From: Alphaproteobacteria bacterium
Lineage (GTDB): Bacteria; Pseudomonadota; Alphaproteobacteria; G965222575
Assembly (NCBI GenBank): GCA_965222575.1
Contig: OZ244958.1
Span: 480,001-544,000 of the forward strand
Direction of reading: 5' to 3'
Length of the DNA stretch: 64,000 nt
This document shows positions 28,427 through 64,000 of the stretch, piece after piece; position 1 is the first letter of the stretch, and every line of letters starts with the position of its first letter. The notes under the pieces are model-generated. The model made no database searches, had not been told where the DNA came from, and saw only the letters and a list, made by a program, of their open reading frames with translations. The position numbers and the translations under genes were made by a program.

Positions 28427-29368
28427 ATGACACGACTTTTTAACCTCGCTACCCGACTCTTTGTCGCTACCAATTTCTCTAAAAACTACAAACTCTTCTT
28501 TATCGCTTCCTCCCTCTTCGTCGGAATCAGTCTCCTTCTCATCACCTTTAGCGGCCTCAATAGAGGCGTTGACTTTCGCGGCGGTACCCTCATGGAAGTC
28601 CGATTCTCTCAACCCCTAACCCCAGACGATGTCTCCTCCCTCAGAACACTCCTCAACCCTACCGCTCCTCATAGCACCCTTCAACAATTCGGTACCCCAG
28701 ATACCATCTTAATGACTTTCTCTATTTCAGAAAACCTCCAACAAACACTCCAAGATATCAAAGTCGCTCTTGCCTCTTTCGACTCCAACATCGATATTCG
28801 ACGCGTCGAAACCGTCGGCCCGCAAATCAGTCGCGAACTCATCCTAAAAGCACTCCTCGCCCTCTCCGTCACTGTGGCTGGTATCTTTTTATACATATGG
28901 ATCCGATTCGAATGGCAGTTCAGCCTCGGGGCTGTCCTCGCTTTAATCCACGATGTCCTCCTAACTATGGGACTCTTCGCTCTTTTCAAAATGGAATTTA
29001 ATGTCTCTTCTGTTGCCGCTCTCCTCACTATCTTAGGCTATTCCATTAATGATACCGTCGTCCTATACGACTGTATCCGCGAAAATGTTTACGGCAAAGA
29101 AGACTATAACCTGCAGACCGTTATCCAAAATTCTGTCCTGCAAACACTCCCTAGAACCCTCATGACCTCTCTCACAACCCTTTTAGCACTCCTGATGCTT
29201 CTCTTCTTCGGTGGACAAATCCTCAAAGGGTTTGCTATCGCTCTCATCTTTGGCGTCATCGTCGGGACTTATTCCTCTATCTTCATCGCCTCAGCTTTGC
29301 TCTTTGTGTTCAAGCTACCCCCTATCGGTATGAAAAAAGAGGATAAGGATGTTGCCCTAACCTCCTAA
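28427..29368 (+). CDS. secF: Protein translocase subunit SecF
   Basis: GVDFRGGT, GYSINDTVV, GTYSSIFIA. Confidence 0.96.
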   Translation: MTRLFNLATRLFVATNFSKNYKLFFIASSLFVGISLLLITFSGLNRGVDFRGGTLMEVRFSQPLTPDDVSSLRTLLNPTAPHSTLQQFGTPDTILMTFSISENLQQTLQDIKVALASFDSNIDIRRVETVGPQISRELILKALLALSVTVAGIFLYIWIRFEWQFSLGAVLALIHDVLLTMGLFALFKMEFNVSSVAALLTILGYSINDTVVLYDCIRENVYGKEDYNLQTVIQNSVLQTLPRTLMTSLTTLLALLMLLFFGGQILKGFAIALIFGVIVGTYSSIFIASALLFVFKLPPIGMKKEDKDVALTS

Positions 29369-29376
29369 CAACAATA

Positions 29377-29553
29377 AGGGCAAAGAAAGGGGGGGCGGAG
29401 AGTAGAAAGCGGCTGGCGTAGGGGAGATGTGTGTGAAGTGTGCGTTTCTTGTTAGGGAAAAGAGGGCAAAGAAAGGGGGGGCGGAGAGTAGAAAGCGGCT
29501 GACGTGCGGGAGATGTAATAGGGGGGAGCGGCGTTTCTTGTTAGGGAAAAGAG
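29377..29553. repeat. G-rich direct repeat, two copies of about 86-90 bp
   Basis: AGGGCAAAGAAAGGGGGGGCGGAGAGTAGAAAGCGGCTG at 29377 and 29463; each unit ends GCGTTTCTTGTTAGGGAAAAGAG. Confidence 0.9.
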
Positions 29554-29566
29554 AGGAAAGGGGACA

Positions 29567-30166
29567 ATGGGACAGACAGAGCGGGGGGAAAAGCTTGAAA
29601 ATAGGAGTGAACGCGTAAGACGCGAGTTCTTTTTGGGGCTTGATACTGTTACACTTGCCCGAAAACTCATTGGAATGCTTTTTGTCCATGAATATTGTCA
29701 TCAGACGCTTGCTGGTATTATCTCTGAAACTGAAGCTTATACCCAAGAAGACCGAGCCTCTCATTCCTTCAACGGGCCTACTAACAGAAATCAAGCTATG
29801 TTTGGACGCCCGGGAACCCTTTATGTTTATCTTATTTATGGCGTGCATTATTGTGCTAATGTTGTAGCGGAAGAACAGGGACGGGGTTGTGCTGTTTTAC
29901 TGCGCACACTACTCCCCTTCAAGGGCCTCCATCATATGGCTCAGAATCGACAAAAATCGCCAACTCACCCAACCCTTACCTGTGGACCCGCTAACCTCAC
30001 AAAAGCTCTTGGTATCACCCTCAAACACAACAAAACAGACCTTTGCCTTGAACAAACCCCTCTCTTCCTCACTCCATCAACGCCCCCACTTTCTATTACG
30101 GCTACACCACGTATTGGAATCTCAAAAAATCAACAAAAACTCTGGCGATTCATAGGACAATTCTAA
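29567..30166 (+). CDS. DNA-3-methyladenine glycosylase (MPG/Aag family)
   Basis: ISETEAY, DRASHSF, YVYLIYGVHYCAN, CGPANL, TPRIGIS. Confidence 0.92.
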   Translation: MGQTERGEKLENRSERVRREFFLGLDTVTLARKLIGMLFVHEYCHQTLAGIISETEAYTQEDRASHSFNGPTNRNQAMFGRPGTLYVYLIYGVHYCANVVAEEQGRGCAVLLRTLLPFKGLHHMAQNRQKSPTHPTLTCGPANLTKALGITLKHNKTDLCLEQTPLFLTPSTPPLSITATPRIGISKNQQKLWRFIGQF

Positions 30167-33100
30167 GACCCCGCACTTAAAAGCTTCATATCCCCTCCAG
30201 AAGCCGTTGTGTCTATTGACACTGTCTTCTCCGTCGTAAAAGAATGCAGATAACGCGGACCGCCAGCCTTAGGGCCTGTCCCTGATAATCCACAACCTCC
30301 AAAGGGGTGAATGCCAACTTGTGCCCCTATTTGATTCCTATTGACATAAATATTGCCAGCTCTCATCTTCTTGCTCACCTTCTCTATCCTGTCATCACAG
30401 CGACTATGAAAACCGAATGTTAAACCGTAACCAGTCCCATTAATCTCTTCTAAAACCTCATCAAGCTCCTGCTTCTTGTACCGACTAATGTGCAAAATAG
30501 GACCGAAAACCTCCTTCTCAGGGAGCCTAATGTCCGGCAAAAGCCATGCCTGTGGAGGGACAAAATACCCCCTAGAAGACGGCACCTGCCCACACGCTAC
30601 TCGCTTACAACCCCTAGAGGGCAACCCCTCTACCCATTCTTCTATCTCACGCTGCGCCTCCCCTGATATCACAGGACCAATATCCGTGGACCTATCCCAC
30701 GATATCCCCACTTTCAATTCCTCTAAAGCCCCTCCTATCATCTCTATTTGCTTCTCCGCAATTTCCTCCTGTAAATATAACACACGCAACGCCGAACACC
30801 GCTGTCCCGCACTCCGAAACGCCCCGCTTAACACATCGCGCGTCACCTGCTCCGTCAACGCCGACGAATCCACCACCATGGCGTTAATCCCTCCAGTTTC
30901 CGCTATCAGTGTGGCAATAGACCCCTCCCTTTGCGATAACCGACGATTAATCTTTCGCGCCGTCTCCGTACTCCCAGTGAACGCAACCCCGCTTAACCGA
31001 TTGTCTAATAATATCTCCGAACACACCTCTTCTCCTTCCCCCGGCAACACATGTAAAACACCGCGCGGTACCCCCGCCTCATAAAGTATCTTTACCGCCT
31101 CAAACGCTATCAACGGCGTTAACTCAGAAGGCTTCGCTAGTACGCTGTTCCCAACAGATAACGCAGCGCAAACCTGTCCTAAAAAAATGGCAAAGGGAAA
31201 ATTCCACGGCGATATACACAAAAATACCCCCTTCCCCTCAACATAATACCTGTTCTCTTCCCCTGTTGCCCCTACTAATAACTGCTCCTGTAAAACCTTC
31301 TCCGATTCTACCGCATAATATCTCAAAAAATCTATCCCCTCCCGTACCTCCGATATACACTCTTCTAAACAACGACCCCCCTCAACACTGATTAAGGACA
31401 CCAACTCCGGGGACTTCTCCTCCATCCTTAAAGCCGCATCTTCTAAAATCTTGCGCCGCTCCCCTTTGCTTCTCCTCCTCCATCCCTCTTGTGCCAAACT
31501 CGCCTCCCCTAAAGCCACCACCGCCTCTTCTCTACCGCAAGACTCTACAGCACCAACAAGTAAAGACCTATCATTAGGACTCCTAACTTCAAGCTTCCCT
31601 GAATCACTTGTCTCCTTCTTGCGCAATGACTTCAATAACTTTGATACCGACTGCTCCAAAACCAATAAATCTTTTTCATTACGCATATTCATCCCTCTGC
31701 TATTACGCCGCCCCCTCAATATCTCCCCAGGCTTCCTCACGCAACTCTTCCCCTTCTGATGTAACGGATCCTGCATCACTTCCTCTACCTTTTTTGTTTT
31801 ATCTGATAATTGTTGCACAAAAGAACTATTCGCTCCATTTTCTAATAAACGACGCACTAAATACGCTAATAAATCATCCTGCCCCCCAACAGGTGCGTAA
31901 ATACGAGGGGGATTAATTGCAAATTTTTCCTGCAAAACCTTATACATACAAGCCCCCATGCCGTGAAGACGTTGAAACTCCCAACCCTTGTAATCGCCTC
32001 CACTCATCTGTAACACACTACAAGCAGTATGCAAATTGTGCGTCGCAAAACAGGGATACAATCGATCCCTTAACCGTAACAACTCCTGACTACACACAAG
32101 ATAACTGATATCCGTATAGCACTTACGCGTAAACACCGCATAATCCCTTAATCCTAATTCCTGATAATGCTTAATCTCTGTGTCCCAATAAGCCCCTTTT
32201 ACCAAACGCGGCATCAATCGACGCTTGGTTTGTTGCGCTATTTCCTCTAAATACCGCACAACCGCTAACCCACGACGCTGATACGATTGTAGCGCTACCC
32301 CAAACCCTTCCCAATCCTTCAGTTTCTTATCCTTACACACCTCAGAAAATACCCCTAAAGTAAGATGAAGCCTGTCCGATTCCTCCGCATCTATGCATAA
32401 AGGGACATTGTAAACACTTGCTAAACGCGCAAGCTCTAGTACCCGCGGCACCAATTCCTCATACACACGCTCCCTTTGTAACACATCAAAACGAGGATGA
32501 ATCGCTGACAATTTAATCGATAACCCATGATTCCTTTCACTTCCCTCCCTCCCAATAGCCTCAAGTGCTTCCATGTACCGCGAAAAATACTTCTCCCCAT
32601 CCTTCCTAGTCCATGCTCCCTCCCCTAACATATCAAATGAACACACACAACCACTAGACTTCTTAAGACCTTGCTCTATTTCCTGCCCATAGATAAACTT
32701 CTTCCCCATCAACGACACAATATGATTCATCACCCGCCTGATGATAGGACGGCTAAGACGATATAATAAAGAACGAAATAGCCCCTTCTTCCCTCTAAAC
32801 CCTAGCACCCCTTTTGAACATAAAAGCCCCACTGTAGAGATGTCTAACCAAACATTCCCTCTCCATAAGTGTGATGTCCAATCTCCCCGCGCTAACTTAC
32901 CGGCTATAAAGCTATGGGATGTTCTCTTATCTGGTATCCTAAGCAGTCCTTCCGCTAAACACATCAGTAGTACCCCCTCTTCAGAGTTTAAGTTATACTC
33001 CCTCATCACCGCCTGTATCACCCCCCCTCTCTCTTCCAGTACCCTCACTTTCTTCCCTAAAGCTGTAGACTGCTCCACTATGCCCCCTCTCTCTTTCGCA

Positions 33101-33228
33101 CTGAGTGACAATAGGGATACCAACTCTCTGATGAGCTCTTCCTCTTCCCTATCCCAACTAGCCCCTAAGGCTTGCGTCGGGGCATACACAGAGGTCTCTT
33201 TGTAACTTGGCACAACCCTTTGACTCAT
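30163..33228 (-). CDS. putA: Bifunctional proline dehydrogenase / P5C dehydrogenase
   Basis: SFDMLGE, RLVKGAYWD, ATHN, VRRLLENGANSSF, ISPWNFP, AETGG, SAGQRCSALR. Confidence 0.97.
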   Translation of the reverse strand: MSQRVVPSYKETSVYAPTQALGASWDREEEELIRELVSLLSLSAKERGGIVEQSTALGKKVRVLEERGGVIQAVMREYNLNSEEGVLLMCLAEGLLRIPDKRTSHSFIAGKLARGDWTSHLWRGNVWLDISTVGLLCSKGVLGFRGKKGLFRSLLYRLSRPIIRRVMNHIVSLMGKKFIYGQEIEQGLKKSSGCVCSFDMLGEGAWTRKDGEKYFSRYMEALEAIGREGSERNHGLSIKLSAIHPRFDVLQRERVYEELVPRVLELARLASVYNVPLCIDAEESDRLHLTLGVFSEVCKDKKLKDWEGFGVALQSYQRRGLAVVRYLEEIAQQTKRRLMPRLVKGAYWDTEIKHYQELGLRDYAVFTRKCYTDISYLVCSQELLRLRDRLYPCFATHNLHTACSVLQMSGGDYKGWEFQRLHGMGACMYKVLQEKFAINPPRIYAPVGGQDDLLAYLVRRLLENGANSSFVQQLSDKTKKVEEVMQDPLHQKGKSCVRKPGEILRGRRNSRGMNMRNEKDLLVLEQSVSKLLKSLRKKETSDSGKLEVRSPNDRSLLVGAVESCGREEAVVALGEASLAQEGWRRRSKGERRKILEDAALRMEEKSPELVSLISVEGGRCLEECISEVREGIDFLRYYAVESEKVLQEQLLVGATGEENRYYVEGKGVFLCISPWNFPFAIFLGQVCAALSVGNSVLAKPSELTPLIAFEAVKILYEAGVPRGVLHVLPGEGEEVCSEILLDNRLSGVAFTGSTETARKINRRLSQREGSIATLIAETGGINAMVVDSSALTEQVTRDVLSGAFRSAGQRCSALRVLYLQEEIAEKQIEMIGGALEELKVGISWDRSTDIGPVISGEAQREIEEWVEGLPSRGCKRVACGQVPSSRGYFVPPQAWLLPDIRLPEKEVFGPILHISRYKKQELDEVLEEINGTGYGLTFGFHSRCDDRIEKVSKKMRAGNIYVNRNQIGAQVGIHPFGGCGLSGTGPKAGGPRYLHSFTTEKTVSIDTTASGGDMKLLSAGS

Positions 33229-33306
33229 TCTTTCATTGTAATCTCATTGTGACTTCTTTCACAGAAAGTATTATTATCTTCTCATCATAGTCACCGTTCC
33301 CTCACC

Positions 33307-35331
33307 ATGAAACAGAAATTTACTCTTTGGTCTATGCGTATTCCACTTGTTGCTACGCTCTGTTTCACAGCCCTTTTCTTCGTTGGCGCCTATTTCTCTT
33401 ATGACCCTTTTGTTGGGCCTTTTGTCTACAATGAGAGGCCTGCTCCTGATTTTTTTTCGCGTGTTTTACTCCTTTGGAAATGGGGTGCTGCTAGTTGTTA
33501 TCAAGGAATTGGTCTCACCTCTTTATTTCTAGCAGCAACTCTTGCTCTTTTAGGCATAAGAATAGGCCTTAAAGGAGAGGCACCTCCTCTGAAAGTGACA
33601 GTGCCTTTCTTGGTACTCTTTGTGTTCACCACGGCGTTAGCACTTGAAATCGTATATCCAAAACAAAATGTCTCAGGACTCTTAGGCCTCCTCTCTTTTC
33701 ACCTCTTATACACGCTCATTCCTGTGGGAGAAAATAGCCAAACAGGCACTGTTGCGCTCTTTTTTTCCCTCACGATTTCTTGCCTTATCTTTTTGTACTT
33801 TGGGGGGAAAAATATTTGGAAACAGCTTCTTGCAACCCTTTTCTCTCACTTCTCCTTTCAAAATCCTCTAAAATCTCAACGCCTTCGGCCCGCCTCTCGT
33901 AAAAAAATCCCCCTCACCCCGCCTCTTTCTCTCCTGAAAAAACCACAGCCTCAAAACACAGAGGCACACCAAACGGAAGTTAGGAATCGTATCCAACCTC
34001 TGAAAAAAGCCCTCAGTGATTTTGGCATCAAAGGGGAGATTATTGATTTCTCCATCGGGCCTGTGGTAGCAGTTTACAACTTCTTCCCAGCCCCGGGTAT
34101 CAAGGCTTCACGCATTATCTCCCTAGCAGACGATATCGCCCGCTCCATCGGCGCTCTCTCTTGCCGTATCGCCCCTATTCCGGGCAAGCAGTCTTTAGGC
34201 ATCGAAGTCCCACTGCAAAAACGACAACCCGTCCTCATCCGATCCCTCATCCAAGACCCAGCCTTCACAAAAGTGCACCATGATACCCTTACCCTTGCTA
34301 TGGGACAAACCATAGATGGGAAACCCTTCTATGATAATTTAGAAGATATGCCTCATCTTCTCATTGCCGGTACTACAGGTGCCGGAAAATCCGTTGGCTT
34401 GAATGCAATGCTGATTTCTATCCTCTATAACAGAACCCCACAGCAGTGCCGTTTTGTCATGATTGACCCCAAAATTTTAGAACTCTCCCTCTATAATGAT
34501 ATTCCACACCTCCTCACCCCCGTCGTTACAGACCCCAAACACGCATTAAGCGCTCTTAAATGGCTCGTCAATGAAATGGACCAACGATACCAGAAAATCG
34601 CAGACCTCGGCGTGCGCGACATCTCAGGATATAATCAAAAAGTCTCACACGCTACTAAAACAGGCAAAATGAGTACCCTCTCCTCTTTTCAGCGTACCCC
34701 GCTAACCCCTCTCCCGAGAATCGTCCTCGTCATTGACGAATTTGCAGACCTCATGATTATCGCACGCAAAGACGTTGAAGATTGTATCCAACGACTCGCT
34801 CAAAAAGCCCGCGCCTGCGGTATGCATATGATACTAGCTACCCAGAGACCTTCCGTAGATGTTATCACAGGAACTATCAAAGCTAACCTCCCAACCCGTA
34901 TGACCTTCAAAGTCGCCTCCAAAACAGATAGTCGCGTTGTCATGGGACAGAGCGGTGCGGAACAACTCTTAGGACACGGCGATATGCTGTATATCCCAAG
35001 TGCTTCAGAAATTATCCGTCTCCACGGCGCTTATGTTTCTGATACAGAAGTGACCGCTGTGGCAAAATTTTGTAAAGCTCAACAAAAACCAGATTATATC
35101 ACTATCCCCTCAACACCCTCTCAATACCCTTCCGCACTGCCGCAAGAAGAAGACCCCCTCTATCAACAAGCTGTGGATTGTATCTTGCAACAAAAACGAT
35201 GCTCTACTTCCCTCCTGCAAAGACGATTTAATATCGGGTACAACAGAGCCGCTAGAATGGTCGACACCATGGAAAAAAATCAGGTTGTCTCTTCTCCTGA
35301 CCACACAGGAAAACGCTCCATTCTCCTATGA
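33307..35331 (+). CDS. ftsK: DNA translocase FtsK
   Basis: N-terminal TMs, PHLLIAGTTGAGKS, ATQRPSVDVITG, gamma domain IGYNRAAR. Confidence 0.96.
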   Translation: MKQKFTLWSMRIPLVATLCFTALFFVGAYFSYDPFVGPFVYNERPAPDFFSRVLLLWKWGAASCYQGIGLTSLFLAATLALLGIRIGLKGEAPPLKVTVPFLVLFVFTTALALEIVYPKQNVSGLLGLLSFHLLYTLIPVGENSQTGTVALFFSLTISCLIFLYFGGKNIWKQLLATLFSHFSFQNPLKSQRLRPASRKKIPLTPPLSLLKKPQPQNTEAHQTEVRNRIQPLKKALSDFGIKGEIIDFSIGPVVAVYNFFPAPGIKASRIISLADDIARSIGALSCRIAPIPGKQSLGIEVPLQKRQPVLIRSLIQDPAFTKVHHDTLTLAMGQTIDGKPFYDNLEDMPHLLIAGTTGAGKSVGLNAMLISILYNRTPQQCRFVMIDPKILELSLYNDIPHLLTPVVTDPKHALSALKWLVNEMDQRYQKIADLGVRDISGYNQKVSHATKTGKMSTLSSFQRTPLTPLPRIVLVIDEFADLMIIARKDVEDCIQRLAQKARACGMHMILATQRPSVDVITGTIKANLPTRMTFKVASKTDSRVVMGQSGAEQLLGHGDMLYIPSASEIIRLHGAYVSDTEVTAVAKFCKAQQKPDYITIPSTPSQYPSALPQEEDPLYQQAVDCILQQKRCSTSLLQRRFNIGYNRAARMVDTMEKNQVVSSPDHTGKRSILL

Positions 35332-35918
35332 AACTCCTGCCGCTCTTGACCCTCTTTCTTGTTTGCTCCGCCACCGCCCAAACACAACCCCAAAAACAAA
35401 CAGAACAACAGGTACTCTCCCTCTTACAAGACCTCCTCCAAAATGACGAAAAAGCCCTCTTCTCTCCCTTTACGCAACAGGACCAAAAAGGAACCTCCAC
35501 CGGTACCCTAATCCTCTCAAGTCAAGGACGATTTCGCTTTTCATACCACCATCCTACCCCTATGACTATCATCTCAGATGGAATCTGGATAGCCATAGAA
35601 GAAGACGGCTTCCTGCAACGCTATCCCCTCTCCTCTTCGCCTCTCTCCGTCCTCAAACGCAAAGATATCAAGCCCTTTATCAAACAATTCTCTTTTCATG
35701 AACGCCTCGTTACCATTCTCCTCGCCCACCCCAAAGACCCACAAGCCCCTTCCGTCACCCTCAATATCGAAACTTCCCCCCTTACACTCCTCTCATGGAC
35801 CATCAATACCCCACACCCCATCATTGTCTTACTGACAAACCCCACAATCTCTGATGCCAAAACCCTCCCTATCTCTACTTTTTTCATTGACTACGATAAG
35901 TATTTCCACGAAGAGTAA
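35328..35918 (+). CDS. lolA: Outer-membrane lipoprotein carrier LolA-like protein
   Basis: Signal peptide; FTQ..., GRFRFSY, IISDG; follows ftsK. Confidence 0.75.
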   Translation: MKLLPLLTLFLVCSATAQTQPQKQTEQQVLSLLQDLLQNDEKALFSPFTQQDQKGTSTGTLILSSQGRFRFSYHHPTPMTIISDGIWIAIEEDGFLQRYPLSSSPLSVLKRKDIKPFIKQFSFHERLVTILLAHPKDPQAPSVTLNIETSPLTLLSWTINTPHPIIVLLTNPTISDAKTLPISTFFIDYDKYFHEE

Positions 35919-35951
35919 CAATACCCAAAGAGAAAAAGTATTTTTTTAACC

Positions 35952-42237: not shown

Positions 42238-42299
42238 GGAGAGGAAGCGGGGGGGTATAGGGGGTTGAGTAGAATTATTATCTTGGTATTGAGGGACGA

Positions 42300-43163: not shown

Positions 43164-43194
43164 GATTGCAAAATGGAGACAAAGGCGTTATATT

Positions 43195-48808: not shown

Positions 48809-49078
48809 TTGAGAAACGTGGCAGCAACGACACAAGAGCGGGTAAAGGAATTTGGCAACAGTTCAACGGACACAGGGGCTTCTTCAGTTCAGATAGCGCT
48901 TCTTACGGATAGGATTTTAGCGCTTACCTTACATGTGCAACAGAATAAGAAGGATAATGCGACGAAGCGCGGGCTTTACCGGTTGGTGAATCAGAGGAAA
49001 AAACTTCTCTCTTATTTGAAGAGGAAGGATGTAGAGGGGTATCAGAGTGTGCTTGGAAAACTTAAGTTAAGAAAATAA
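48809..49078 (+). CDS. rpsO: 30S ribosomal protein S15
   Basis: DTGASSVQIALLT, KKDNATKRGL, RKKLLSYL. Confidence 0.95.
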   Translation: MRNVAATTQERVKEFGNSSTDTGASSVQIALLTDRILALTLHVQQNKKDNATKRGLYRLVNQRKKLLSYLKRKDVEGYQSVLGKLKLRK

Positions 49079-49099
49079 AATAATAGATGAGGAAAGTAG

Positions 49100-51178: not shown

Positions 51179-51190
51179 GCCCACCCCGCG

Positions 51191-51294
51191 CACACTCCCC
51201 CGGGGCACTGGGAGAGGAGGCAACACGCACTCCCGCACACTGAGGGGAAGAGAGGGTGTACGCACTCCTCTGCACACTGAGGGAAGAGGGGGTA
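51191..51294. repeat. Degenerate ~35-bp tandem repeat, about 3 copies, between convergent pnp and mltG
   Basis: Recurrent (A)CGCACTCC..GCACACTGAGGG(G)AAGAG. Confidence 0.7.
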
Positions 51295-51351
51295 TCTGTA
51301 TAGCTAGGGGTGACCCCCTAAGGGGTGAAGCTTACAAAAGAGTCTTGTTGC

Positions 51352-55090: not shown

Positions 55091-56128
55091 TTATTGAGAT
55101 GAGAGAAAAAATTGACGGCTAAGACGCAATCCTTGACCTTGATAATGAGACCCAAGGGCAGCACCATATGGACGAGCAACCGCTTTGTTCAGAGGATAAA
55201 ATGTCAACTGACCCACCACTTGCTTGTGAGATAACAACATAGGCGTTTCATGTACGCGTATCTCTAAGACAGCACGCGAGGGTACCCCTAGACCAAAGCC
55301 CGGGTCAAAAAACCCAGCATAATGTAAACGATATGCCCCTAAACTATGTTCATAAGGACATAACTCTGCTGTCATTGATAAAGGAATGGAAACACTCTCA
55401 TGACTCCGCAAAATATAAAAATTGTCTGGCAATAAAGACAGCCAACCCTCCTTTGCCTTCACAGGCTCCCAAAAATCCTCCGCCCGATAACGCCCAACAG
55501 AATCAAACACTAAAGGCCTTGTAACCGCCTTCTTCGCAACCCACCCCACAACCCCTCCTTCTTCCTCCAAACTCATCCGTATAGGCATACGCTCTATAGT
55601 CTTCTGTTTCACTGATTTCTTCGCAAAACGTATCTGATTAAGCGTGTCTCCTGCTTTGAGAACAATATCAAAACTCCGGGACGAAATTTCCGCATATAAT
55701 GACCCCTCATAACCAAAAGGCGTCCTATCATAACAGGCTATCTCCTTACCAGATTCACACATCAAACGCACAAACATATCTAAGCGCCCAGACGAACTCT
55801 TCGCATTGCTAATACACAGAACTTCTTCTGGTAAAGATAAAGACTCCATCAACGGCACAATATACACATGAGACTTCTTGAAAAGCGCACCATCCCCTTC
55901 CAGATTCAACACTTCATCACTCAAAGACTGTAAAGCCGATTGCAAAGGACAATCCTCCGATGGAAGAAAACTTCCCCGCACAGCATAGGCTTTCTTCCCA
56001 AGACGTAAATCTAAACTTGCAGGCTGTTGCTGTCCCGACTTGAGAGGATGGACAGCATGTACCCATGAAAGCGTGCGCTTCTCCAGTGATAACATCTCTA
56101 ACATGTCATAAAACATAAACCGCCTCAA
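55091..56128 (-). CDS. dcd: dCTP deaminase (alphaproteobacterial two-domain type)
   Basis: QPASLDLRLG, NAKSSSGRLD, HYAGFFDPGFG, YQGQGL. Confidence 0.92.
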   Translation of the reverse strand: MRRFMFYDMLEMLSLEKRTLSWVHAVHPLKSGQQQPASLDLRLGKKAYAVRGSFLPSEDCPLQSALQSLSDEVLNLEGDGALFKKSHVYIVPLMESLSLPEEVLCISNAKSSSGRLDMFVRLMCESGKEIACYDRTPFGYEGSLYAEISSRSFDIVLKAGDTLNQIRFAKKSVKQKTIERMPIRMSLEEEGGVVGWVAKKAVTRPLVFDSVGRYRAEDFWEPVKAKEGWLSLLPDNFYILRSHESVSIPLSMTAELCPYEHSLGAYRLHYAGFFDPGFGLGVPSRAVLEIRVHETPMLLSHKQVVGQLTFYPLNKAVARPYGAALGSHYQGQGLRLSRQFFLSSQ

Positions 56129-56210
56129 ATCGTAAAAAAATACCTGTTATTACTATAGACAATTTCTATCTTCAGGGAAAAGAATTAAAAGAAAGCCAAT
56201 GAGAGATTCT

Positions 56211-56507
56211 TCTTGTCAAAGGCTAAGGGAAACCAGTGAAAGTAGGGCGTGAGGTTGGCGGATTGTCTTTAGTCTCTTGTCAAAGGCTAAGGGGAAACCA
56301 GTGAGAGTAGGGCGTGAGGAGGTTGGCGGGTTGTCTTCAGTCTCTTGTCAAAGGCTAAGGGGAAACCAGTGAAAGTAGGGCGTGAGGTTGGCGGGTTGTC
56401 TTCAGTCTCTTGTCAAAGGCTAAGGGGAAACCAGTGAAAGTAGGGCGTGAGGTTGGCGGATTGTCTTCAGTCTCTTGTCAAAGGCTAGGGGGAAACCAGT
56501 GAGAGTA
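56211..56507. repeat. 64-68 bp tandem repeat, about 4.5 copies, including the prfB stop codon
   Basis: TCTTGTCAAAGGCTAAGGG(G)AAACCAGTGA(A/G)AGTAGGGCGTGAGGTTGGCGG(A/G)TTGTCTT(C/T)AGTC units starting at 56211, 56275, 56343, 56408 and 56473. Confidence 0.95.
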
Positions 56508-57592
56508 AATAGGCTTCTAAGAAGCCATCTATTTTTCCATCTAAAACAGCCTTACCGTTTCTGTTTTCATAGTGTGTGCGTAAATCTTTCACCATTGTAT
56601 AAGGGTGAAAAACATAAGAGCGTATCTGGTGTCCCCATCCTATATCCTCTAATTTTCCGTAGTTTTTTTGTTTATCATCTAGGACTTTTCTTTCTGATAG
56701 TTCGTAGAGTCTCGCTTCTAACATTTTTCGCGCTTGTGCGCGGTTGCGGTGTTGAGAGCGGCTATTTTGGCATTGAACGACAATGCCTGTTGGGTAGTGT
56801 GTCAGACGAATGGCGCTGTCTGTGCGATTGACGTGCTGTCCTCCTGCTCCAGAGGCGCGGTAAGTATCAACGCGAATATCTTTTTCTTCAATTTTGATCT
56901 CTAAACGTGATTCTACCTGTGGATAAACCTCTATGGACGCAAAAGATGTATGCCGTCTCTTGCCAGAATCAAAGGGGGATATCCTCACCAAACGGTGTAC
57001 ACCAGATTCCCCTTTTAACCAACCATAGCTATACCTTCCTTTCATGCCCAAAGTTGCTGATTTAATACCAGCCTCTTCTCCATCTGTACGATGCACAATC
57101 TCACAGCCCACGCCTCGTCGTTCCGCCCACCGACTATAAAGACGCAACAACATCAAAGCCCAATCCTGGCTCTCCGTACCGCCAGCCCCCGCATGAATCT
57201 CAAGATAGCAAGACTCCTCATCACACTTCCCCTTCATCAACGATAACAAGGCTTCATGACGCGCCTCCGCCTGCACCTTCAACAAAGACTCCGCTGTGGC
57301 TTTTTGTAAGGACAAATCACCATCCTCCACAGCAAGCCTGTATAATTCCTCTAAGGTTGTCTGCTCTTCCTTCAGAGACTCATACTGTTTAATGCGTACC
57401 TGCAAGCGCTTTAAGGCCTTTAACTCTTCTTTTAAGACCTGCCCGCCTCCTGCATTCCACAGCGTTTCATCCTCTAGCTTCTCTAACCGACTCTTTAAGT
57501 GTTCCTTGCACTCAGGCCAGTCAAAGACACCTCCTGAGAATCCCTAAGGAGCTATTGAGAGATTTTAGACTGTTTTCAATATCAATTCTCAT
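56485..57592 (-). CDS. prfB: Peptide chain release factor 2 with programmed +1 frameshift
   Basis: ATG 57592 gives MRIDIENSLKSLNSSLGILRRCL, then CTT TGA C with an upstream AGGAGG. The +1 frame is continuous with the ORF containing SPF and GGQ; about 368 aa in total. Confidence 0.96.
57520..57535 (-). other. prfB autoregulatory frameshift site
   Basis: AGGAGG-TGT-CTTTGAC on the minus strand. Confidence 0.95.
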
Positions 57593-57611: not shown

Positions 57612-59990
57612 TTAGTGATAGGGCGGTAGAAAAGACGAAGGCTTCGGCCAAGTGAATTCTTTGAAGCTCTTTTCATCCAATTCTTCCCAGCGCGGGCCTG
57701 TTCCCCCCCTTCTCTCCTTTTTAACGGGAATGAAAAGAATCTCCTTAGGGATGGGAAAGGTGCTTTGCGTTGACAACTCTTCAGTTTCTTGTATTGTGTT
57801 CAGCAAATCCTGAAAAATAGGAACCATGGTGTTAGAGGCCGCGGTCTTTTTCCCTAGACTCGTTGGGAGATCATATCCCATATAAAGCCCTATGGCTAAG
57901 GAAGGCGTCAAGCCTATGAACCATAAGTCCTGACTATTGTTTGTTGTGCCAGTCTTTCCAGCGAGAGGAAGGGGGATACGATTCAAGCGGGCAGCTGTTC
58001 CTCGATGGACAACCCCTTTGAGTAAGGATAAAACCTGATAGGCTACGGCAGGGGAGAGAATCTGCTCTCTTTTGTCCACCACGCGCGGGAGCTGGTCGCC
58101 TCCTTTCTCCCAAGGCAACTGCTTGTCTTCAATTTCAAAGGGCGAGTTCACAAGGAGCGTTTTCCCTTCTCTATTCTGTACACGCGAAATGAAGACAGGC
58201 GTTACTTTCTTCCCTCCGTTGACAAAACTAGCGTAAGCTGCTGTAAGCTTTAGTAAGGTCGTCTCAACAGACCCAATAGCCAAAGAAGGCGTTAAAGACG
58301 GATTCTGATTCAGTTGAAAATCCTGTACCCTTTGACCTATTTTGTCCAGACCCACCGCAAGCCCTAGACGAATGGCCATCAAATTATGGGACTGCTCTAG
58401 TCCTTGTCTTAAGGACTTCTCTCCTTCAAAAAAGCCGCTATAATTCCTAGGACGCCACAGCATAAAGTCTCCTTGCTCCATGACAAGAGGCATGTTGGAG
58501 AGGCGCGATAAGGAGGTGTACCCTTGCTCAAAGGCTGTGGCATACACAAAGGGCTTGAAAGCTGAACCGGGCTGGCGTTGTGCCTGTGTCGCCCTGTTGA
58601 AATGCGATAACCCAAATTGCCACCCCCCAATCAATGTTAACACTTCTCCTGTGTGGGCATTCATTATCACTAAGGCACCATTCACTTCAGGGACCTGCTC
58701 AATATGCCACGTCCCATCAACATTCACCCCTACAGTAACCAAATCTCCAACCTGTAGAACCTCATCTAAGGAGGTAAGCGGCTCTCCTAAGGTACCCTCA
58801 CTATCCAGTGTGCGCATCCAGTCTAAATTTTCCTCCCATAAAATTCCCTCTTCCTCTTCTTCTCCATAAAATTGTAGCTTGCCACCTCTCTCTTCTACCA
58901 CGGATAAACGCGCAAATCTCCAACCCGCTAGTAACCCCTCCGGCGGACGGAGACTCCCCCAGCCCAATGCAGACCACTCCTCTTCTGAAAGATGGCCTAT
59001 AGCCCCCCTGTACCCTCTCTTCCTGTCATAACGCCGAAGTCCAGCTTGTAAAACACTTTGACCCTCATATTGTCGTTGCGTATCCATTGTGCCATATAAC
59101 ACAAGACCTTCCTTGTACAACCTTTTTGACCCATAAGTCTTAAGCGCCCAACGACGAACTTCTTCTGTAAACCACGCCGTTGAAGCAGACCTAGCGGTAC
59201 GCTTTTGCTCCGTAACCTCTATAGGAAAAGACACAGCTCTCTTGAAAATATCTGCCGTGATATACTCATTTTTTAACATCTGTTCCAACACCCAACGCCT
59301 CCTCTCTAAGGCCCGAGCAGGGTGCTTAAGCGGGTTAAACAAGTTTGGACCCTTAGGCAAAGTCGCTAAAAACGCACACTCCTCCAATGTCAATGCTGAC
59401 ACACTCTTATCAAAATACGCCAAAGACGCTTTCCCAATCCCCCATGCTCCAAACCCAAAATAAATCTCGTTAATATACAGTTCAAAAATCTTTTCCTTTG
59501 ATAAAATCCTCTCTATACGCAAAGACAAAATCGCTTCCTGTATCTTCCTATCCAGTGTTCTTTCCCGACTCAATAGAAAATTTTTCGCCACCTGCTGGGT
59601 AATCGTTGAAGCCCCTATTAAACGCTCCTTGCGCACCTTACGACCAATATTCTTCAATCCCGCTACAATTGTACTGACTATGTCTATCCCCCCATGAGAA
59701 AAAAATCTCTTATCCTCCGCTGAAATAAAAGCTTTCACTAACAAAGGCGGTAGACTCTCATAAGGCAAATATACCCGGTGCTGATAAGCAAAATCCTCCA
59801 ATAACTCCCCCTGCCGACTGTAAAGACGACTGATGGTATCTGTCTGGTGATTGAGAAGATCACTGTGTGACGGCAGACGCACACTGTAATACAGAAAAGT
59901 CCCCAACCCCAACAACACAAAACACAAACCCCCTGCTAGCAACAGATACAGAACAAAACGACCCCTCAAAAATCGCAAAGAAAAGGACAT
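57612..59990 (-). CDS. mrcA: Penicillin-binding protein 1A
   Basis: AEDKRF, GASTITQQVAKN, RQPGSAFKP, KTGTTN. Confidence 0.94.
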   Translation of the reverse strand: MSFSLRFLRGRFVLYLLLAGGLCFVLLGLGTFLYYSVRLPSHSDLLNHQTDTISRLYSRQGELLEDFAYQHRVYLPYESLPPLLVKAFISAEDKRFFSHGGIDIVSTIVAGLKNIGRKVRKERLIGASTITQQVAKNFLLSRERTLDRKIQEAILSLRIERILSKEKIFELYINEIYFGFGAWGIGKASLAYFDKSVSALTLEECAFLATLPKGPNLFNPLKHPARALERRRWVLEQMLKNEYITADIFKRAVSFPIEVTEQKRTARSASTAWFTEEVRRWALKTYGSKRLYKEGLVLYGTMDTQRQYEGQSVLQAGLRRYDRKRGYRGAIGHLSEEEWSALGWGSLRPPEGLLAGWRFARLSVVEERGGKLQFYGEEEEEGILWEENLDWMRTLDSEGTLGEPLTSLDEVLQVGDLVTVGVNVDGTWHIEQVPEVNGALVIMNAHTGEVLTLIGGWQFGLSHFNRATQAQRQPGSAFKPFVYATAFEQGYTSLSRLSNMPLVMEQGDFMLWRPRNYSGFFEGEKSLRQGLEQSHNLMAIRLGLAVGLDKIGQRVQDFQLNQNPSLTPSLAIGSVETTLLKLTAAYASFVNGGKKVTPVFISRVQNREGKTLLVNSPFEIEDKQLPWEKGGDQLPRVVDKREQILSPAVAYQVLSLLKGVVHRGTAARLNRIPLPLAGKTGTTNNSQDLWFIGLTPSLAIGLYMGYDLPTSLGKKTAASNTMVPIFQDLLNTIQETEELSTQSTFPIPKEILFIPVKKERRGGTGPRWEELDEKSFKEFTWPKPSSFLPPYH

Positions 59991-60059: not shown

Positions 60060-60446
60060 ATGTCTAACACATTTTCTTCCTTTGCTACTATCCTAACGAA
60101 GGAAAAAAAACGACACTTCCACACCCATGATAAAGCCTTTTACGCCCTTCTGAAACATTGGGAAAAATGCGCACCAAATACCATTAGGCAAAACACAAGA
60201 CCCCTTGCATTGAGAAAAGGAATCCTCACACTCGGCGTCCACCCGCACGCTTCCTTGATTGTACGGTATCAACAAGGAAAACTCCTTCTTGCTCTACAGA
60301 ATTTTTTTCGTTCCAAAAAAATTGTGAGCATTAAACTTGTGCCACTTCCTTTGCAAGACACCCTAAAGCCTTGTGCGGGGGAAAAGTTTGAACCCAACAA
60401 GGGGGGGGAAGGAAAGCCTAAAGTCTTGTGCGGGGGAAAAGTTTGA
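60060..60446 (+). CDS. DUF721/DciA-like protein with a repeat-derived C-terminus
   Basis: LLKHWEK...TRPLALRKGILTLGV...IKLV is DciA-like; the last ~28 codons come from the repeat array. Confidence 0.65.
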   Translation: MSNTFSSFATILTKEKKRHFHTHDKAFYALLKHWEKCAPNTIRQNTRPLALRKGILTLGVHPHASLIVRYQQGKLLLALQNFFRSKKIVSIKLVPLPLQDTLKPCAGEKFEPNKGGEGKPKVLCGGKV

Positions 60447-61039
60447 ACCCAACAAGGAGGAGCGGAGGGTCTAAAGCCTTGGGAAAGTTTGAACCCAACA
60501 AGGGGGGGGAGGAAAGCCTAAAGCCTTGTGCGGGGGAAAAGTTTGAACCCAACAAGGAGGGGGAGGAAAGAAAGCCTAAAGCCTAAAGCCCTGTGCGGGG
60601 GAAAAGTTTGAACCCAACAAGGAGGAGCGGAGGAAAGCCTAAAGCCTTGTGCGGGGGAAAAGCTTGAACCCAACAAGGGGGAGGAAGGAAAGCCTAAAGT
60701 CTTGTGCGGGGGAAAAGTTTGAACCCAACAAGGAGGAGCGGAGGGCCTAAAGCCCTGTGCGGGAGAAAAGTGCGGGGGAAAAATTTGAACCCTAAGGGGG
60801 AGGAAGGAAAGCCTAAAGTCTTGTGCGGGGGAAAAGCTTGAACCCAATAAGGGGGGGAGGAAGAAAGCCTAAAGCCTTGTGTGGGGGAAAAGTTTGAACC
60901 CAACAAGGGGGGGAAGGAAAGCCTAAAGCCTTGTGCGGGGGAAAAGTTTGAACCCAACAAGGAGGAGCGGAGGAAAGCCTAAAGCCTTGTGCGGGGAAAA
61001 GTTTGAACCTAACAAGGAGGAGCGGAGGAAAGCCTAAAG
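60362..61039. repeat. ~55-bp G/purine-rich minisatellite, 12 units
   Basis: Unit CCTAAAG(C/T)CTTGTGCGGGGGAAAAG(T/C)TTGAACCCAACAAGG followed by GGGGGGAAGGAAAG or AGGAGCGGAGGAAAG; some units carry internal deletions or duplications. Confidence 0.95.
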
Positions 61040-61529: not shown

Positions 61530-61697
61530 GGAGACGTTTTATATCTATGAGGGGTATGATACTGAAAAAGTGCATGGGGTTTTTAGAGTAACTTTCCCCT
61601 TTTCCTCTTTAACAAGTTGCTCTACAGCTGGTGTTTCCGGTAACCTTATGCCTTGTACATTGTTTTTAAGGGAGAAATATGCTTATGATAAGGCGTG

Positions 61698-61769
61698 GGG
61701 TCCGTAGCTCAACGGCAGAGCTGGCCGCTCATAACGGCTAGGTTGTAGGTTCGAATCCTGCCGGACCCA
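61698..61769 (+). tRNA. tRNA with CAT anticodon, most likely tRNA-Ile2 (lysidine), no encoded CCA
   Basis: GGGTCCG TAGCTCAACGGCAGAGC TGGCCG CT CAT AA CGGCT...GGTTCGAATCC TGCCGGACCCA. Lacks initiator features; overall sequence is Ile2-like. Confidence 0.9.
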
Positions 61770-61801
61770 CTGACAGAATGCTTCTTTAATCTTACTAGCT
61801 T

Positions 61802-63088
61802 ATGACTGAAAAAACACCCCCCTTGCTTTCTCGTGAGAACTTATTTTCTTCTCCATGGACTGTTGTGGTTGGGACGCAGTGGGGTGATGAAGGCAAGGGG
61901 CGAATCGTTGATTACCTTTGTTCTGCTGTTGCGGGTGCGGTCCGATATCAAGGGGGGCATAATGCTGGGCATACCATTGTCATAGAGGGGAAGACTTATC
62001 AGTTAAGCTTACTGCCTTCCGCTGTAGCTTATGAGGATAAAACCCTTATGCTAGGGACGGGCGTGGTCATTGACCCCCGCGCTTTAATGCGAGAGATTCA
62101 CTCCTTAGAGGCTGTTGGTCTCTCAATCCGGAATCGTCTGTTCATTGCCCGAAGTTGTGCGTTAATCCTTCCTCTTCATTCACACCTCGATGGCTTTCGC
62201 GAAGAGCGGGCAACACACCCTATTGGTACGACACGTCGCGGCATTGGGGCTGCTTATGAAGATAAAGTCGCTAGAAGAGCTGTTAGAGTGTGCGATTTGC
62301 GTGATGATAAGCTCTTAAAAGAGCGTCTTGCCAACCTTTTAGAACACCATAATCCCTTGCGGCTAGGACATGGAAAAAAACCCCTCACCCTCAAACAACT
62401 CTGGGATTTCTTAGACCCCTATAGACCCCACTTATTGCGCTTTTCCGCCGATATCCAGCACATGCTCCTCGCCGCTTGGGAGAAAAAAACGCCCCTTCTT
62501 TTTGAAGGGGCTCAAGGGACAATGTTAGATCTAGACAGCGGCTCCTACCCTTATGTTACCTCTTCTCATACCTTAGCCGGCAGTATCTATACAGGTGCGC
62601 CCCTCCCGCCTAGTGTCACCCCTTCTGTCCTAGGCGTCACCAAAGCCTATACCACCCGCGTAGGAGAAGGCCCCTTCCCTACAGAAATACCCTCCCATCA
62701 CCCCGTAGCTCAACACTTGTTTCACAAAGGAGAAGAAAGAGGAAGCGTGACAAACAGACCAAGACGTTGCGGCTGGCTCGATGGCGTCATACTGAAATAT
62801 GCCTCTAAAATTAACGGACTAGATGGACTTGTCCTCACAAAACTTGATGTCCTTGACGGACTCGAAACCATAGAGATCGCCGTAGACTATAACCTGCACG
62901 AGATATCTGAACAACATATCTCCTATAAAACCTTCGCAGGATGGCAAAACAACACAGAAGATATCACGCAAAAACAAAAACTCCCACCCCAAGCTAGAGC
63001 GTATATTGATTTTATTGAAGAATTTTGTAATGTCCCTATAAAATATGTCTGCACAGGCCCCCAAAGAAACGCCATTATCCAGTGGTAA
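61802..63088 (+). CDS. purA: Adenylosuccinate synthetase
   Basis: QWGDEGKG, GGHNAGHT, EGAQG, AYTTRVG, TKLDVLD. Confidence 0.97.
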   Translation: MTEKTPPLLSRENLFSSPWTVVVGTQWGDEGKGRIVDYLCSAVAGAVRYQGGHNAGHTIVIEGKTYQLSLLPSAVAYEDKTLMLGTGVVIDPRALMREIHSLEAVGLSIRNRLFIARSCALILPLHSHLDGFREERATHPIGTTRRGIGAAYEDKVARRAVRVCDLRDDKLLKERLANLLEHHNPLRLGHGKKPLTLKQLWDFLDPYRPHLLRFSADIQHMLLAAWEKKTPLLFEGAQGTMLDLDSGSYPYVTSSHTLAGSIYTGAPLPPSVTPSVLGVTKAYTTRVGEGPFPTEIPSHHPVAQHLFHKGEERGSVTNRPRRCGWLDGVILKYASKINGLDGLVLTKLDVLDGLETIEIAVDYNLHEISEQHISYKTFAGWQNNTEDITQKQKLPPQARAYIDFIEEFCNVPIKYVCTGPQRNAIIQW

Positions 63089-64000
63089 ATCCCCCTTCAA
63101 TCCACAAACACTTGCCTTGTATCGTGAGTGGAAAGACTCCCTCGCCGCACGCGCTCTTTCTTGCCATACACAACAAGCCTACAGCTTTGATGTCCTCGCC
63201 TTCGCCTCTTTCATGACAACTTACTTAGGACAAAAAATAACCCTCACTACCCTCAAAACCCTCACCGTTTCCCACATGCGCGCCTGGCTTGCCCATCGCG
63301 CTAACAACTATCAACCCGCTTCCACTACCCGCGCCCTCGCCGCCGTGAGACACTTCTTCTCCTTTAGTAAAAAAAACCTCCACACCATCTCTCTTGCACC
63401 GCAAGTCGTCTCTTCTCCTAAAAAACAACAACTCCTCCCTCGCGCCCTAGAACAAGAACAAATCCAACGCCTCCTCAATTTCCCGCACACAACTCGTACC
63501 CCCACTTGGATTGTCGCTAGAGATAAAGCTCTCATCCTCCTCCTCTATGGACAAGGCTTGCGAATCACTGAAGCCTTACACCTCACCTGTAAACAACTGG
63601 ACTCACCCCTCCTCACTGTCATGGGAAAAGGACAGAGATACAGACAAGTTCCTCTCATGAATACAGTCTATAAAGCCTTGAAACTCTACCTCTCTGAACG
63701 CAAAAAATTCACACGCACAAAACCAACAGACCCACTTTTCATCGGCAAAAGAGGAAAACAACTACAGCCAGCTGTAGTACAACGATTCTTCAGAACCTTA
63801 CGCTCCACCTTGCACCTCCCCCCCTCCCTCACGCCCCATACCCTAAGACATAGCTTCGCAACTCACCTCCTAAATGAAGGGGCAGACCTAAGAAGCATAC
63901 AAAAACTCCTAGGACATCAAAGCCTCAAAACAACTCAAGTCTATACACAACGACAGACCAAAGCCCTCCTCAAAGTCTATGACGCCGCTCACCCTGCCAT
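63045..64000 (+). CDS. xerC: Tyrosine recombinase XerC; 3' end runs off the window
   Basis: Not in ORF track. ATG 63045 MSAQAPK...; LPRAL, RDKAL..LYGQGLRITEA, GKG, TPHTLRHSFATHLL, IQKLLGH, TTQVYT, AAHP. Confidence 0.88.
   Translation, partial: MSAQAPKETPLSSGKSPFNPQTLALYREWKDSLAARALSCHTQQAYSFDVLAFASFMTTYLGQKITLTTLKTLTVSHMRAWLAHRANNYQPASTTRALAAVRHFFSFSKKNLHTISLAPQVVSSPKKQQLLPRALEQEQIQRLLNFPHTTRTPTWIVARDKALILLLYGQGLRITEALHLTCKQLDSPLLTVMGKGQRYRQVPLMNTVYKALKLYLSERKKFTRTKPTDPLFIGKRGKQLQPAVVQRFFRTLRSTLHLPPSLTPHTLRHSFATHLLNEGADLRSIQKLLGHQSLKTTQVYTQRQTKALLKVYDAAHPA

What the first reader, a model, noticed from the sequence alone, without database searches (positions are those of the whole stretch)
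29300..64000. Saw-tooth G/C skew with abrupt jumps at repeat arrays: a possible multi-origin or site-anchored strand-asymmetric mutational system
Seen in sequence: the top strand repeatedly jumps from C-rich to G-rich (about 29.4, 40-41, 48.7, 51.2, 56.2, 57.6 and 60.4 kb; weaker near 33.3 and 36.2 kb) and then drifts back to C-rich over 0.5-5 kb. Polarity reverses inside single genes on either strand. Hand counts per 60-nt line: mpg (+) G16/C6 at 29821 versus G6/C20 at 30001; purA (+) G25/C7 at 61861 versus G9/C24 at 62641; prfB (-) G19/C11 at 56761 versus G7/C24 at 57181. The jumps do not follow divergent promoters (none at 6.0, 22.1 or 60.0 kb), and most sit on G-rich tandem repeats or CTAG palindromes. 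Established knowledge: a C-to-G jump on the top strand is the signature of a bidirectional origin, bacteria normally show one per replicon, and repeated jump-and-decay profiles are described for multi-origin chromosomes. Inference: this lineage may initiate replication at many fixed sites, or chronically expose ssDNA outward from them (R-loop/G4 or break-resection repair), with the repeats being either initiator elements or scars. The profile is from eyeballing and spot counts, not computed.
Basis: partly seen in the sequence, partly recalled or inferred. Interest (0 to 1): 0.85.

Follow-up and report, generated by a model that had tools for sequence, protein, structure and literature searches.

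The report
Patchy extreme strand bias, one origin
A small bacterial genome carries an unusually strong G-versus-C imbalance between its two DNA strands that changes every one to three kilobases, even inside intact essential genes, but it shows one replication origin rather than many, and the cause of the patches is not settled.

Summary
At four-fold degenerate sites the top-strand G/C skew reaches about ±0.9 and changes inside infB, pnp, prfB and purA, but not mpg. One-kb skew varies 3.6 times more than in 97 loci from other Alphaproteobacteria.

The multi-origin reading is not supported. Cumulative skew has one minimum (577 kb) and one maximum (1,146 kb). Gene orientation agrees, 620 to 438. 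dnaA, rnhA, recG and priA are present. Genome-wide, up-steps and down-steps are equally sharp. Steps are not tied to CTAG or DnaA boxes, and up-steps are not specifically tied to tandem repeats.

The handedness that exists is anchored at gene starts. Coding-strand skew is +0.15 at transcription-unit starts and decays within about 1 kb; controls lack this. This explains under 2% of the variance.

The patches inside the collinear rimP–pnp operon cannot be inversions. Their cause is unresolved. I rate this an extreme variant of known strand asymmetry.

The parts
15528..35926 (.). Long homogeneous C-rich background segment (third-position plus non-coding skew -0.50). It holds genes on both strands and has the polarity expected for this replichore.
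   Evidence: Segmentation; four-fold skew of -0.5 to -0.96 in plus- and minus-strand genes.
29369..29566 (+). G-rich intergenic spacer (G89/C19) holding a two-copy direct repeat of about 88 nt upstream of mpg. It is the source of the '29.4 kb jump'.
   Evidence: four-fold sites of the flanking genes stay C-rich.
43195..51178 (+). rimP-nusA-infB-rbfA-truB-rpsO-pnp operon. It lies head-on to the inferred fork direction and is collinear with relatives, yet it alternates between skew of about +0.8 and about 0.
   Evidence: infB and pnp named; the other gene names are inferred from tblastn matches and conserved order; collinear in 124 of 126 relatives' loci; skew.
42004..44840 (.). G-rich patch (+0.63) that starts in the 5' part of the minus-strand gene 41074-42237 and runs through the ygfZ-like gene, rimP and most of nusA.
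45682..46837 (.). G-rich patch (+0.82) wholly inside infB, over the GTPase part. Both flanks, inside the same gene, have skew of about 0.
   Evidence: G45-56 against C3-10 per 100 codons.
48556..49927 (.). G-rich patch (+0.75) covering the truB 3' end, rpsO and the first 276 codons of pnp. It ends inside pnp.
49930..51240 (.). The 3' part of pnp, with weak or negative skew (-0.10; four-fold about -0.35).
51242..52269 (.). G-rich top strand (+0.38) over mltG, so its coding strand is C-rich. An up-step lies at the convergent pnp/mltG junction, beside a 36-nt two-copy repeat at 51225-51293.
55313..56173 (.). Strongly C-rich patch (-0.73) at the 5' end of the minus-strand gene 55091-56128.
56211..56507 (+). 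Non-coding tandem array, 65-nt unit x 4.5, G-rich on the top strand (skew +0.42). Short-read contigs break here.
56485..57405 (-). prfB. The top-strand third-position count goes from G26/C11 at its 3' end to G10/C46 at its 5' end.
57612..59990 (-). Class A penicillin-binding protein gene with a graded skew, from about 0 at the 3' end to -0.77 near the 5' end.
60362..61039 (+). Non-coding tandem array, about 55-nt unit x 12, G-rich on the top strand (skew +0.37). Short-read contigs break here.
61802..63088 (+). purA. Third-position skew falls from about +0.2 at the 5' end to about -0.55 at the 3' end.

Best explanation
The stretch is ordinary housekeeping DNA of a 1.22-Mb, repeat-rich alphaproteobacterial genome with one replication origin-terminus axis. 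It carries an unusually strong strand bias of the deamination type: one strand is enriched in G and T, the other in C and A.

The 'teeth' between 29 and 64 kb are a superposition of four things.
(i) The replichore bias, which makes the top strand C-rich here. This is shown.
(ii) Patches of about 1-3 kb where the polarity is weakened or reversed at synonymous sites, often inside intact genes. Genome-wide their up and down edges are equally sharp. This is shown, but the cause is not.
(iii) A G-over-C excess on the coding (non-template) strand that is anchored at gene starts and decays over about 1 kb. It puts up-steps at transcription-unit starts and declines inside genes, on either strand. The pattern is shown. 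Reading it as transcription- or R-loop-associated exposure of the non-template strand is inference.
(iv) G-rich non-coding tandem arrays that add spikes of their own. This is shown.

On a larger scale (5-100 kb), segments of discordant polarity contain candidate foreign gene clusters, a type III secretion cluster and a phage-like head cluster. They probably reflect rearrangement or acquisition; this is inference. No extra origins are needed.
For: Single axis: cumulative skew has its minimum at 576,990 and its maximum at 1,145,854. Four-fold skew has the replichore's sign in genes of both orientations (+0.23 and +0.34 on the right; -0.30 and -0.09 on the left). There are 620 leading and 438 lagging genes. 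The replichore explains 25% of the variance of 300-nt third-position skew.

Deamination-type, strand-symmetric composition: in patches with skew above 0.6, plus-strand genes read A .15, C .07, G .41, T .36. Minus-strand genes in patches below -0.6 read the exact complement.

Reality and rarity. Contigs of two runs are collinear through the intragenic switches (42001-53243 with 7 differences; 42948-53243 with 13). None of the 8 joints listed changes strand.

Gene-start anchoring: the residual at transcription-unit starts is +0.15±0.02, falling to +0.02 by 1 kb. In 607 control units the profile is flat after the first 200 nt. Coding-sense skew declines 5' to 3' in 62% of 476 genes (p=7e-8; 61 genes at z<-3, 28 at z>3), and in 58.7% with four-fold sites only (p=1.6e-4). 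Divergent junctions step up by +0.18±0.03.

Patches are not inversions: rimP-nusA-infB-truB-rpsO-pnp is collinear in 124 of 126 relatives' loci. Only 10 inverted repeat pairs of 150 bp or more exist, and none flanks a patch.

The arrays carry skew of their own.
Against: The named components leave most of the fine-scale signal unexplained. Gene strand adds about 1% and the distance-from-start term about 0.5% of variance. Ten-kb block means account for 58%, and true within-gene variance is about 18% of the total.

Some features contradict a simple replication-plus-transcription sum. mltG and the 3' end of prfB are co-oriented with the fork yet have C-rich coding strands. There is a strong up-step at the convergent pnp/mltG junction, although convergent junctions show none on average (-0.02±0.03).

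No cluster of DnaA-box-like sites marks the skew minimum, and dnaA lies about 508 kb from it.

Whether long discordant segments are inverted DNA is undecided. By genes, 20 of 70 have a G-rich coding strand, against 301 of 483 in concordant segments. By same-strand gene runs it is 8 of 19 against 94 of 172 (p=0.34).

The gene set is my own longest-ORF call, not an annotation. The controls are stretches around pnp in other Alphaproteobacteria, not whole genomes. There are no expression data, no raw-read coverage and no close relative.
Confidence: 0.5

Rival explanations
1. Many fixed replication origins. Each abrupt C-to-G jump is an initiation site, the slow return is a diffuse termination zone, and the tandem repeats act as initiator elements.
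For: In 42-64 kb, several up-steps lie in spacers that hold small repeats (48.78, 51.2, 56.2, 60.4 kb). The step at 51.2 kb sits at a convergent junction, where a promoter explanation fails. Increment skewness for all sites in the left replichore is +0.37±0.08. A secondary reversed zone exists at about 190-270 kb.
Against: There is one global V in cumulative skew, and gene orientation matches it. Aligned up- and down-steps are equally sharp. The skew signal has no periodicity. DnaA-box-like sites lie near 2.4% of up-steps, 4.0% of down-steps and 2.7% of random points. Arrays are no more frequent in up-step spacers (15 of 56 against 81 of 444, p=0.15) and are more frequent in down-step spacers. 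dnaA, RNase HI, recG and priA are all present. Origins every 1-3 kb have no precedent that I know of (recalled).
Confidence: 0.04
2. History only. The genome has a very strong replication skew that has been scrambled by many inversions and by acquired islands. The patches are relics that are being erased at different rates.
For: Ten-kb block means explain 58% of the variance. Change points are enriched near gene boundaries (39% within 100 nt, against 24% of random points). Composition is exactly strand-symmetric, as flipping would give. Discordant segments include a type III secretion cluster and a phage-like cluster. The genome is 5% tandem repeats. The rimP-pnp operon lies head-on to the fork with a mostly G-rich coding strand, as after a recent flip of 42-52 kb.
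Against: 57 of 125 up-steps and 80 of 126 down-steps lie more than 100 nt from any gene junction. The polarity changes three times inside an operon that is collinear with 124 of 126 relatives' loci, and inside intact infB and pnp. No inverted repeats flank the patches. Lineage-specific protein divergence does not track the dips consistently: in pnp the dips are less diverged, in infB more. The test of orientation bias in discordant segments is inconclusive.
Confidence: 0.2
3. Recombination mosaic. Short tracts of about 1-3 kb were imported by homologous recombination from diverged relatives in which the same genes lie on the other replicative strand.
For: Patch size and symmetric sharp edges that ignore gene boundaries fit conversion tracts. 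recA is present. Differences between near-identical strains are partly clustered, for example 7 within 47 nt at 57824-57870 and 4 within about 100 nt at 55283-55385. A phage- or GTA-like head cluster exists.
Against: Alleles with skews of +0.8 and -0.8 would differ at most four-fold sites. My estimate from the compositions is about 17% identity at such sites if they are independent. That is far beyond what RecA-dependent recombination with MutS present normally tolerates (established knowledge, recalled). Patch skews form a continuum, not two classes. No relative closer than 60% PNPase identity was found in two collections, so no donor is known.
Confidence: 0.08
4. Self-sustaining local domains of single-strand exposure. 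Sense or antisense transcripts form R-loops, which are favoured where the displaced strand is G-rich. C and A on that strand are deaminated, which makes it still more G- and T-rich. Polarity therefore becomes locally heritable and independent of annotated genes. Drift-fixed clusters of strand-coordinated deamination are a close variant.
For: The composition signature implies both C-to-T and A-to-G change on one strand. Domains of about 1 kb reach near-saturating skew. There is a promoter-proximal G excess that controls lack. First-position skew relative to orthologues follows the patches (r=0.53, p=0.006, 25 windows), so the pressure is long-lasting. The G-rich strand of mltG and of the prfB 3' end is the one that read-through from the left would displace (inference).
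Against: RNase HI, recG, mfd and a UDG-family glycosylase are present. Annotated gene strand explains about 1% of the variance. Convergent junctions show no mean step. Patch polarity is not seeded by protein-imposed composition: own third-position skew against relatives' first- and second-position skew gives r=-0.27 and -0.18. There are no RNA or R-loop data, so antisense transcription is assumed, not seen.
Confidence: 0.18

Closest known systems
Replication-associated GC/AT skew of bacterial chromosomes (leading strand rich in G and T; single origin and terminus). Recalled textbook knowledge.
   Same: One global skew switch pair about half a genome apart, the leading strand G- and T-rich at four-fold sites, and genes co-oriented with it.
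   Different: The amplitude is far larger locally (four-fold skew to ±0.9; 1-kb skew sd 0.248, against 0.069 in 97 alphaproteobacterial loci). The replichore explains only 25% of the variance. Polarity changes inside genes.
Transcription-associated strand asymmetry and 5'-end GC skew, known mainly from eukaryotes. For fungal genes I saw the abstract of PMC3315797. For CpG-island promoters I saw only the search listing of PMC4617957. Deamination of the non-transcribed strand in E. coli is recalled.
   Same: G excess on the coding strand that is highest at the start of transcription units and decays downstream, with up-steps at divergent junctions.
   Different: It occurs here in a bacterium, at synonymous sites, and reaches about 1 kb. 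The mean amplitude is small (+0.15) next to the patch amplitude. No R-loop or expression data exist for this organism.
Saw-tooth ('N-domain') skew profiles between replication origins in mammalian chromosomes. Recalled; no paper read.
   Same: The local impression of abrupt upward jumps and slow declines in 42-64 kb.
   Different: The scale is 1-3 kb, not hundreds of kb. Genome-wide, up- and down-steps are equally sharp. The up-steps track gene starts.
Strand-asymmetric C-to-T and A-to-G gradients in vertebrate mitochondrial DNA, set by time spent single-stranded. Recalled; no paper read.
   Same: The same pair of transitions is implied by the composition of the skewed patches, with comparable skew magnitudes.
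   Different: Mitochondrial gradients are monotonic along one replication path. Here the polarity alternates.
Scrambled skew in repeat-rich, rearranging symbiont genomes such as arthropod Wolbachia. I saw only the search listing of PMC4703054.
   Same: A small alphaproteobacterial genome with many repeats and 99-nt (ankyrin-like) arrays, and irregular block-scale skew.
   Different: Rearrangement cannot explain switches inside a collinear operon and inside intact genes.

Membership tests
Single-origin bacterial replication skew | One minimum and one maximum of cumulative GC skew, roughly opposite each other on the circle | tested here: met
   Minimum at 576,990 and maximum at 1,145,854 of 1,215,846 bp. 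A smaller local reversal exists at about 190-270 kb.
Single-origin bacterial replication skew | The skew has the replichore's sign at synonymous sites in genes of both orientations | tested here: met
   Four-fold skew is +0.229 and +0.344 (right replichore) and -0.303 and -0.089 (left).
Single-origin bacterial replication skew | Genes preferentially co-oriented with the inferred fork direction | tested here: met
   620 leading against 438 lagging genes.
Single-origin bacterial replication skew | An initiator gene, and a cluster of initiator boxes at the skew minimum | tested here: inconclusive
   dnaA is present (279.3 bits, under the 343.9 cut-off) at 69,182-70,432, far from the minimum. No cluster of boxes with one mismatch or fewer lies near 577 kb; the densest clusters lie at tandem or repeat arrays (121, 401, 1,139 kb) (positions compared).
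Multi-origin chromosome (saw-tooth skew domains) | Upward jumps systematically sharper than downward returns | tested here: not met
   Aligned profiles of 85 up-steps and 93 down-steps overlay. Mean steps are 0.586 and 0.583. Third-position increment skewness is +0.12±0.075.
Multi-origin chromosome (saw-tooth skew domains) | A recurring sequence element at the upward jumps | tested here: not met
   CTAG, CCTAGG, CCCTAGGG, G6/C6 and DnaA-box-like sites occur near up-steps as often as near random points. Tandem arrays occur in 15 of 56 up-step spacers against 81 of 444 other spacers, p=0.15.
Multi-origin chromosome (saw-tooth skew domains) | Copy-number peaks at the jumps in replicating cells | not testable with these tools
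   The three runs are held as contigs, which give one depth figure per contig.
Origin-independent (R-loop-primed) stable DNA replication | Loss of RNase HI or RecG, or of DnaA | tested here: not met
   RNase H domain 144.7 bits; recG-like 566 bits; priA 512.6 bits; dnaA 279 bits.
Transcription-associated strand asymmetry | Excess of G over C on the non-template strand, greatest near the transcription start and decaying downstream | tested here: met
   The residuals run +0.15, +0.11, +0.10, +0.06, +0.04 and on to about +0.02 in 200-nt bins from transcription-unit starts. Controls are flat after bin 1. 62% of 476 genes have a negative slope.
Transcription-associated strand asymmetry | Gene orientation predicts the sign of the local skew | tested here: not met
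   Adding gene strand raises R2 only from 0.253 to 0.264. Genes on both strands reach both extremes.
Transcription-associated strand asymmetry | Strength scales with expression or R-loop occupancy | not testable with these tools
   No run on record as RNA holds the stretch.
Inversion-scrambled skew | Patch borders coincide with breaks of gene order or orientation relative to relatives | tested here: not met
   Three polarity changes lie inside rimP-pnp, which is collinear in 124 of 126 relatives' loci. This was tested for this operon only.
Inversion-scrambled skew | Discordant segments carry the orientation bias of flipped DNA | tested here: inconclusive
   By genes, 20 of 70 against 301 of 483. 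By same-strand runs, 8 of 19 against 94 of 172, p=0.34.

The most novel reading that the evidence does not exclude
This bacterium has heritable, kilobase-scale domains of local strand-asymmetric deamination. Their polarity is set neither by the replication fork nor by annotated gene orientation. The domains might be self-reinforcing R-loop or other single-strand-exposure domains. They drive four-fold sites to near-saturating G or C richness and have begun to reshape protein sequence inside essential genes.
Probability: 0.2. Interest if true: 0.8.

Novelty: new variant of a known kind. Interest (0 to 1): 0.5.

Why it matters
Strand skew is routinely used to place origins, judge assemblies and infer mutational mechanisms. 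Here it is dominated by a fine-scale component that standard models (replication direction, gene orientation, inversions) do not explain. If the patches reflect a local, lasting exposure of one strand, the genome would be a natural record of where single-stranded DNA forms in a bacterial chromosome. It would also show how far mutation pressure alone can push synonymous, and partly non-synonymous, sites within one gene. If the patches are relics of history, the case is still a caution: a skew saw-tooth does not imply multiple origins, and cumulative skew in repeat-rich symbiont genomes can mislead.

Tried and rejected
Amino-acid composition as the cause: rejected for infB, pnp, prfB and purA, because four-fold sites show the same switches. 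It is accepted in part for the 29.4-kb spike and mpg.

Assembly artefact: rejected. Contigs of two runs are collinear across the switches at about 99.9% identity. One of these runs may be the source sample, so this is weak independence.

Okazaki-scale periodicity: the spectrum is smooth, with no peak between 200 nt and 20 kb.

Motif anchors (CTAG, CCTAGG, CCCTAGGG, G6, C6, DnaA-box-like): no enrichment at steps.

Inverted repeats as inversion substrates: 10 pairs of 150 bp or more, none at patch borders.

Faster local evolution in the dips: own-to-consensus identity ratios go opposite ways in pnp and infB.

Seeding of polarity by protein-imposed G richness: not seen.

Loss of repair or restart genes: recA, mutS, RNase HI, a UDG-family protein, priA, recG and mfd are all found. 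Only the family-1 ung model has no match; in the tool's control panel it matched only 6 of 14 genomes and not Caulobacter.

Close relatives for polarised substitutions: none. The best PNPase identity is 60% in 31 genomes of the class, 60% in genome contigs and 59% in metagenome contigs.

Expression: no RNA holder is listed.

Strain differences: 40 are listed and 18 more not shown. That is too few, and they are unpolarised, so no spectrum test was possible. The 8 joints have sides of 33 letters or fewer at 85% likeness. I treat them as other organisms or paralogues, not as rearrangements.

Literature: four searches listed no report of a bacterial genome with kilobase-scale intragenic skew patches. 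I read passages of one preprint (a different organism, 1.51 Mb and 35% GC) and the abstract and outline of PMC9836097. That abstract reports GTA clusters in G-rich skew peaks, the opposite sign to the phage-like cluster here. Supplements were not opened.

The gene-count test looked decisive against inversion.

My note gave +0.14 and -0.01 for the first-position shift. The scripted values are +0.131 and +0.004.

Full report
Setting. The window is positions 480,001-544,000 of a single-contig genome of 1,215,846 bp with 45.7% G+C. PNPase from the window is at most 60% identical to proteins of Alphaproteobacteria. All 30 nearest genomes offered are only 'same class', and metagenome contigs hold nothing closer than 59%. 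The lineage therefore has no close sequenced relative in these collections. Tandem repeats make up 5% of the genome (107 arrays of 100 bp or more, 61.9 kb). Many long arrays have a 99-nt period; I recognise the repeat as ankyrin-like from memory and did not test it. Genes in the finding's range are ordinary housekeeping genes: mpg, miaB, infB, pnp, mltG, fabF, prfB, a class A PBP and purA.

Noticed in passing
window 57480-57540, minus strand: prfB carries what I recognise (from memory) as the classical programmed +1 frameshift site: a Shine-Dalgarno-like AGGAGG a few bases before CTT TGA C. The long ORF 56485-57405 matches release factor 2 only from model position 55 on.
   Followed up: partly
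window 1-12000: The most extreme bulk composition of the window: GC skew of -0.43 to -0.66 together with AT skew up to +0.49, across genes on both strands. Low-complexity C/A-rich short repeats are present (e.g. 1-50 and 4045-4103).
   Followed up: no
L184:1100-6725 (genome 241,100-246,725), minus strand: A type III secretion gene cluster (SctV 942 bits, SctD, gatekeeper SctW) in a 1.2-Mb alphaproteobacterial genome. It lies in a zone whose skew is discordant with its replichore.
   Followed up: partly
L183:2501-9419 (genome 141,500-148,400), minus strand: A run of 12 small same-strand genes with one weak capsid or prohead-protease match (49 bits), so phage- or gene-transfer-agent-like. Its coding strand is C-rich. 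The abstract of PMC9836097 reports the opposite, G-rich skew peaks, for alphaproteobacterial GTA clusters.
   Followed up: partly
genome 190,000-270,000: An 80-kb zone of reversed polarity inside the left replichore (local cumulative-skew minimum near 190 kb, local maximum near 270 kb), although most genes there are co-oriented with the global fork direction. It could be a large acquired or rearranged block, or a secondary replication feature.
   Followed up: partly
genome-wide, e.g. 872,827-875,835 and 942,235-945,346: Very long arrays of 99-nt units (about 30 copies each), and about 30 non-coding arrays of 30-230-nt units rich in G or C runs. In all there are 107 arrays of 100 bp or more, 5% of the genome.
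   Followed up: partly
window 39975-41043: This stretch shares 85-90% similarity in inverted orientation with genome positions 273.5, 389.0, 391.6 and 392.1 kb, so it is a dispersed repeat family. CCCCTAGGGG-type palindromes lie at 39975-40075.
   Followed up: no
window 55283-55385, 57486-57512, 57824-57870: Differences between the assembly and the main strain of run X2 are clustered, up to 7 within 47 nt, against a background of about 1 per kb. This looks like short conversion tracts.
   Followed up: no
genome 69,182-70,432, minus strand: dnaA scores under the curated cut-off (279 against 344 bits). It lies about 508 kb from the skew minimum and about 140 kb from the skew maximum.
   Followed up: partly
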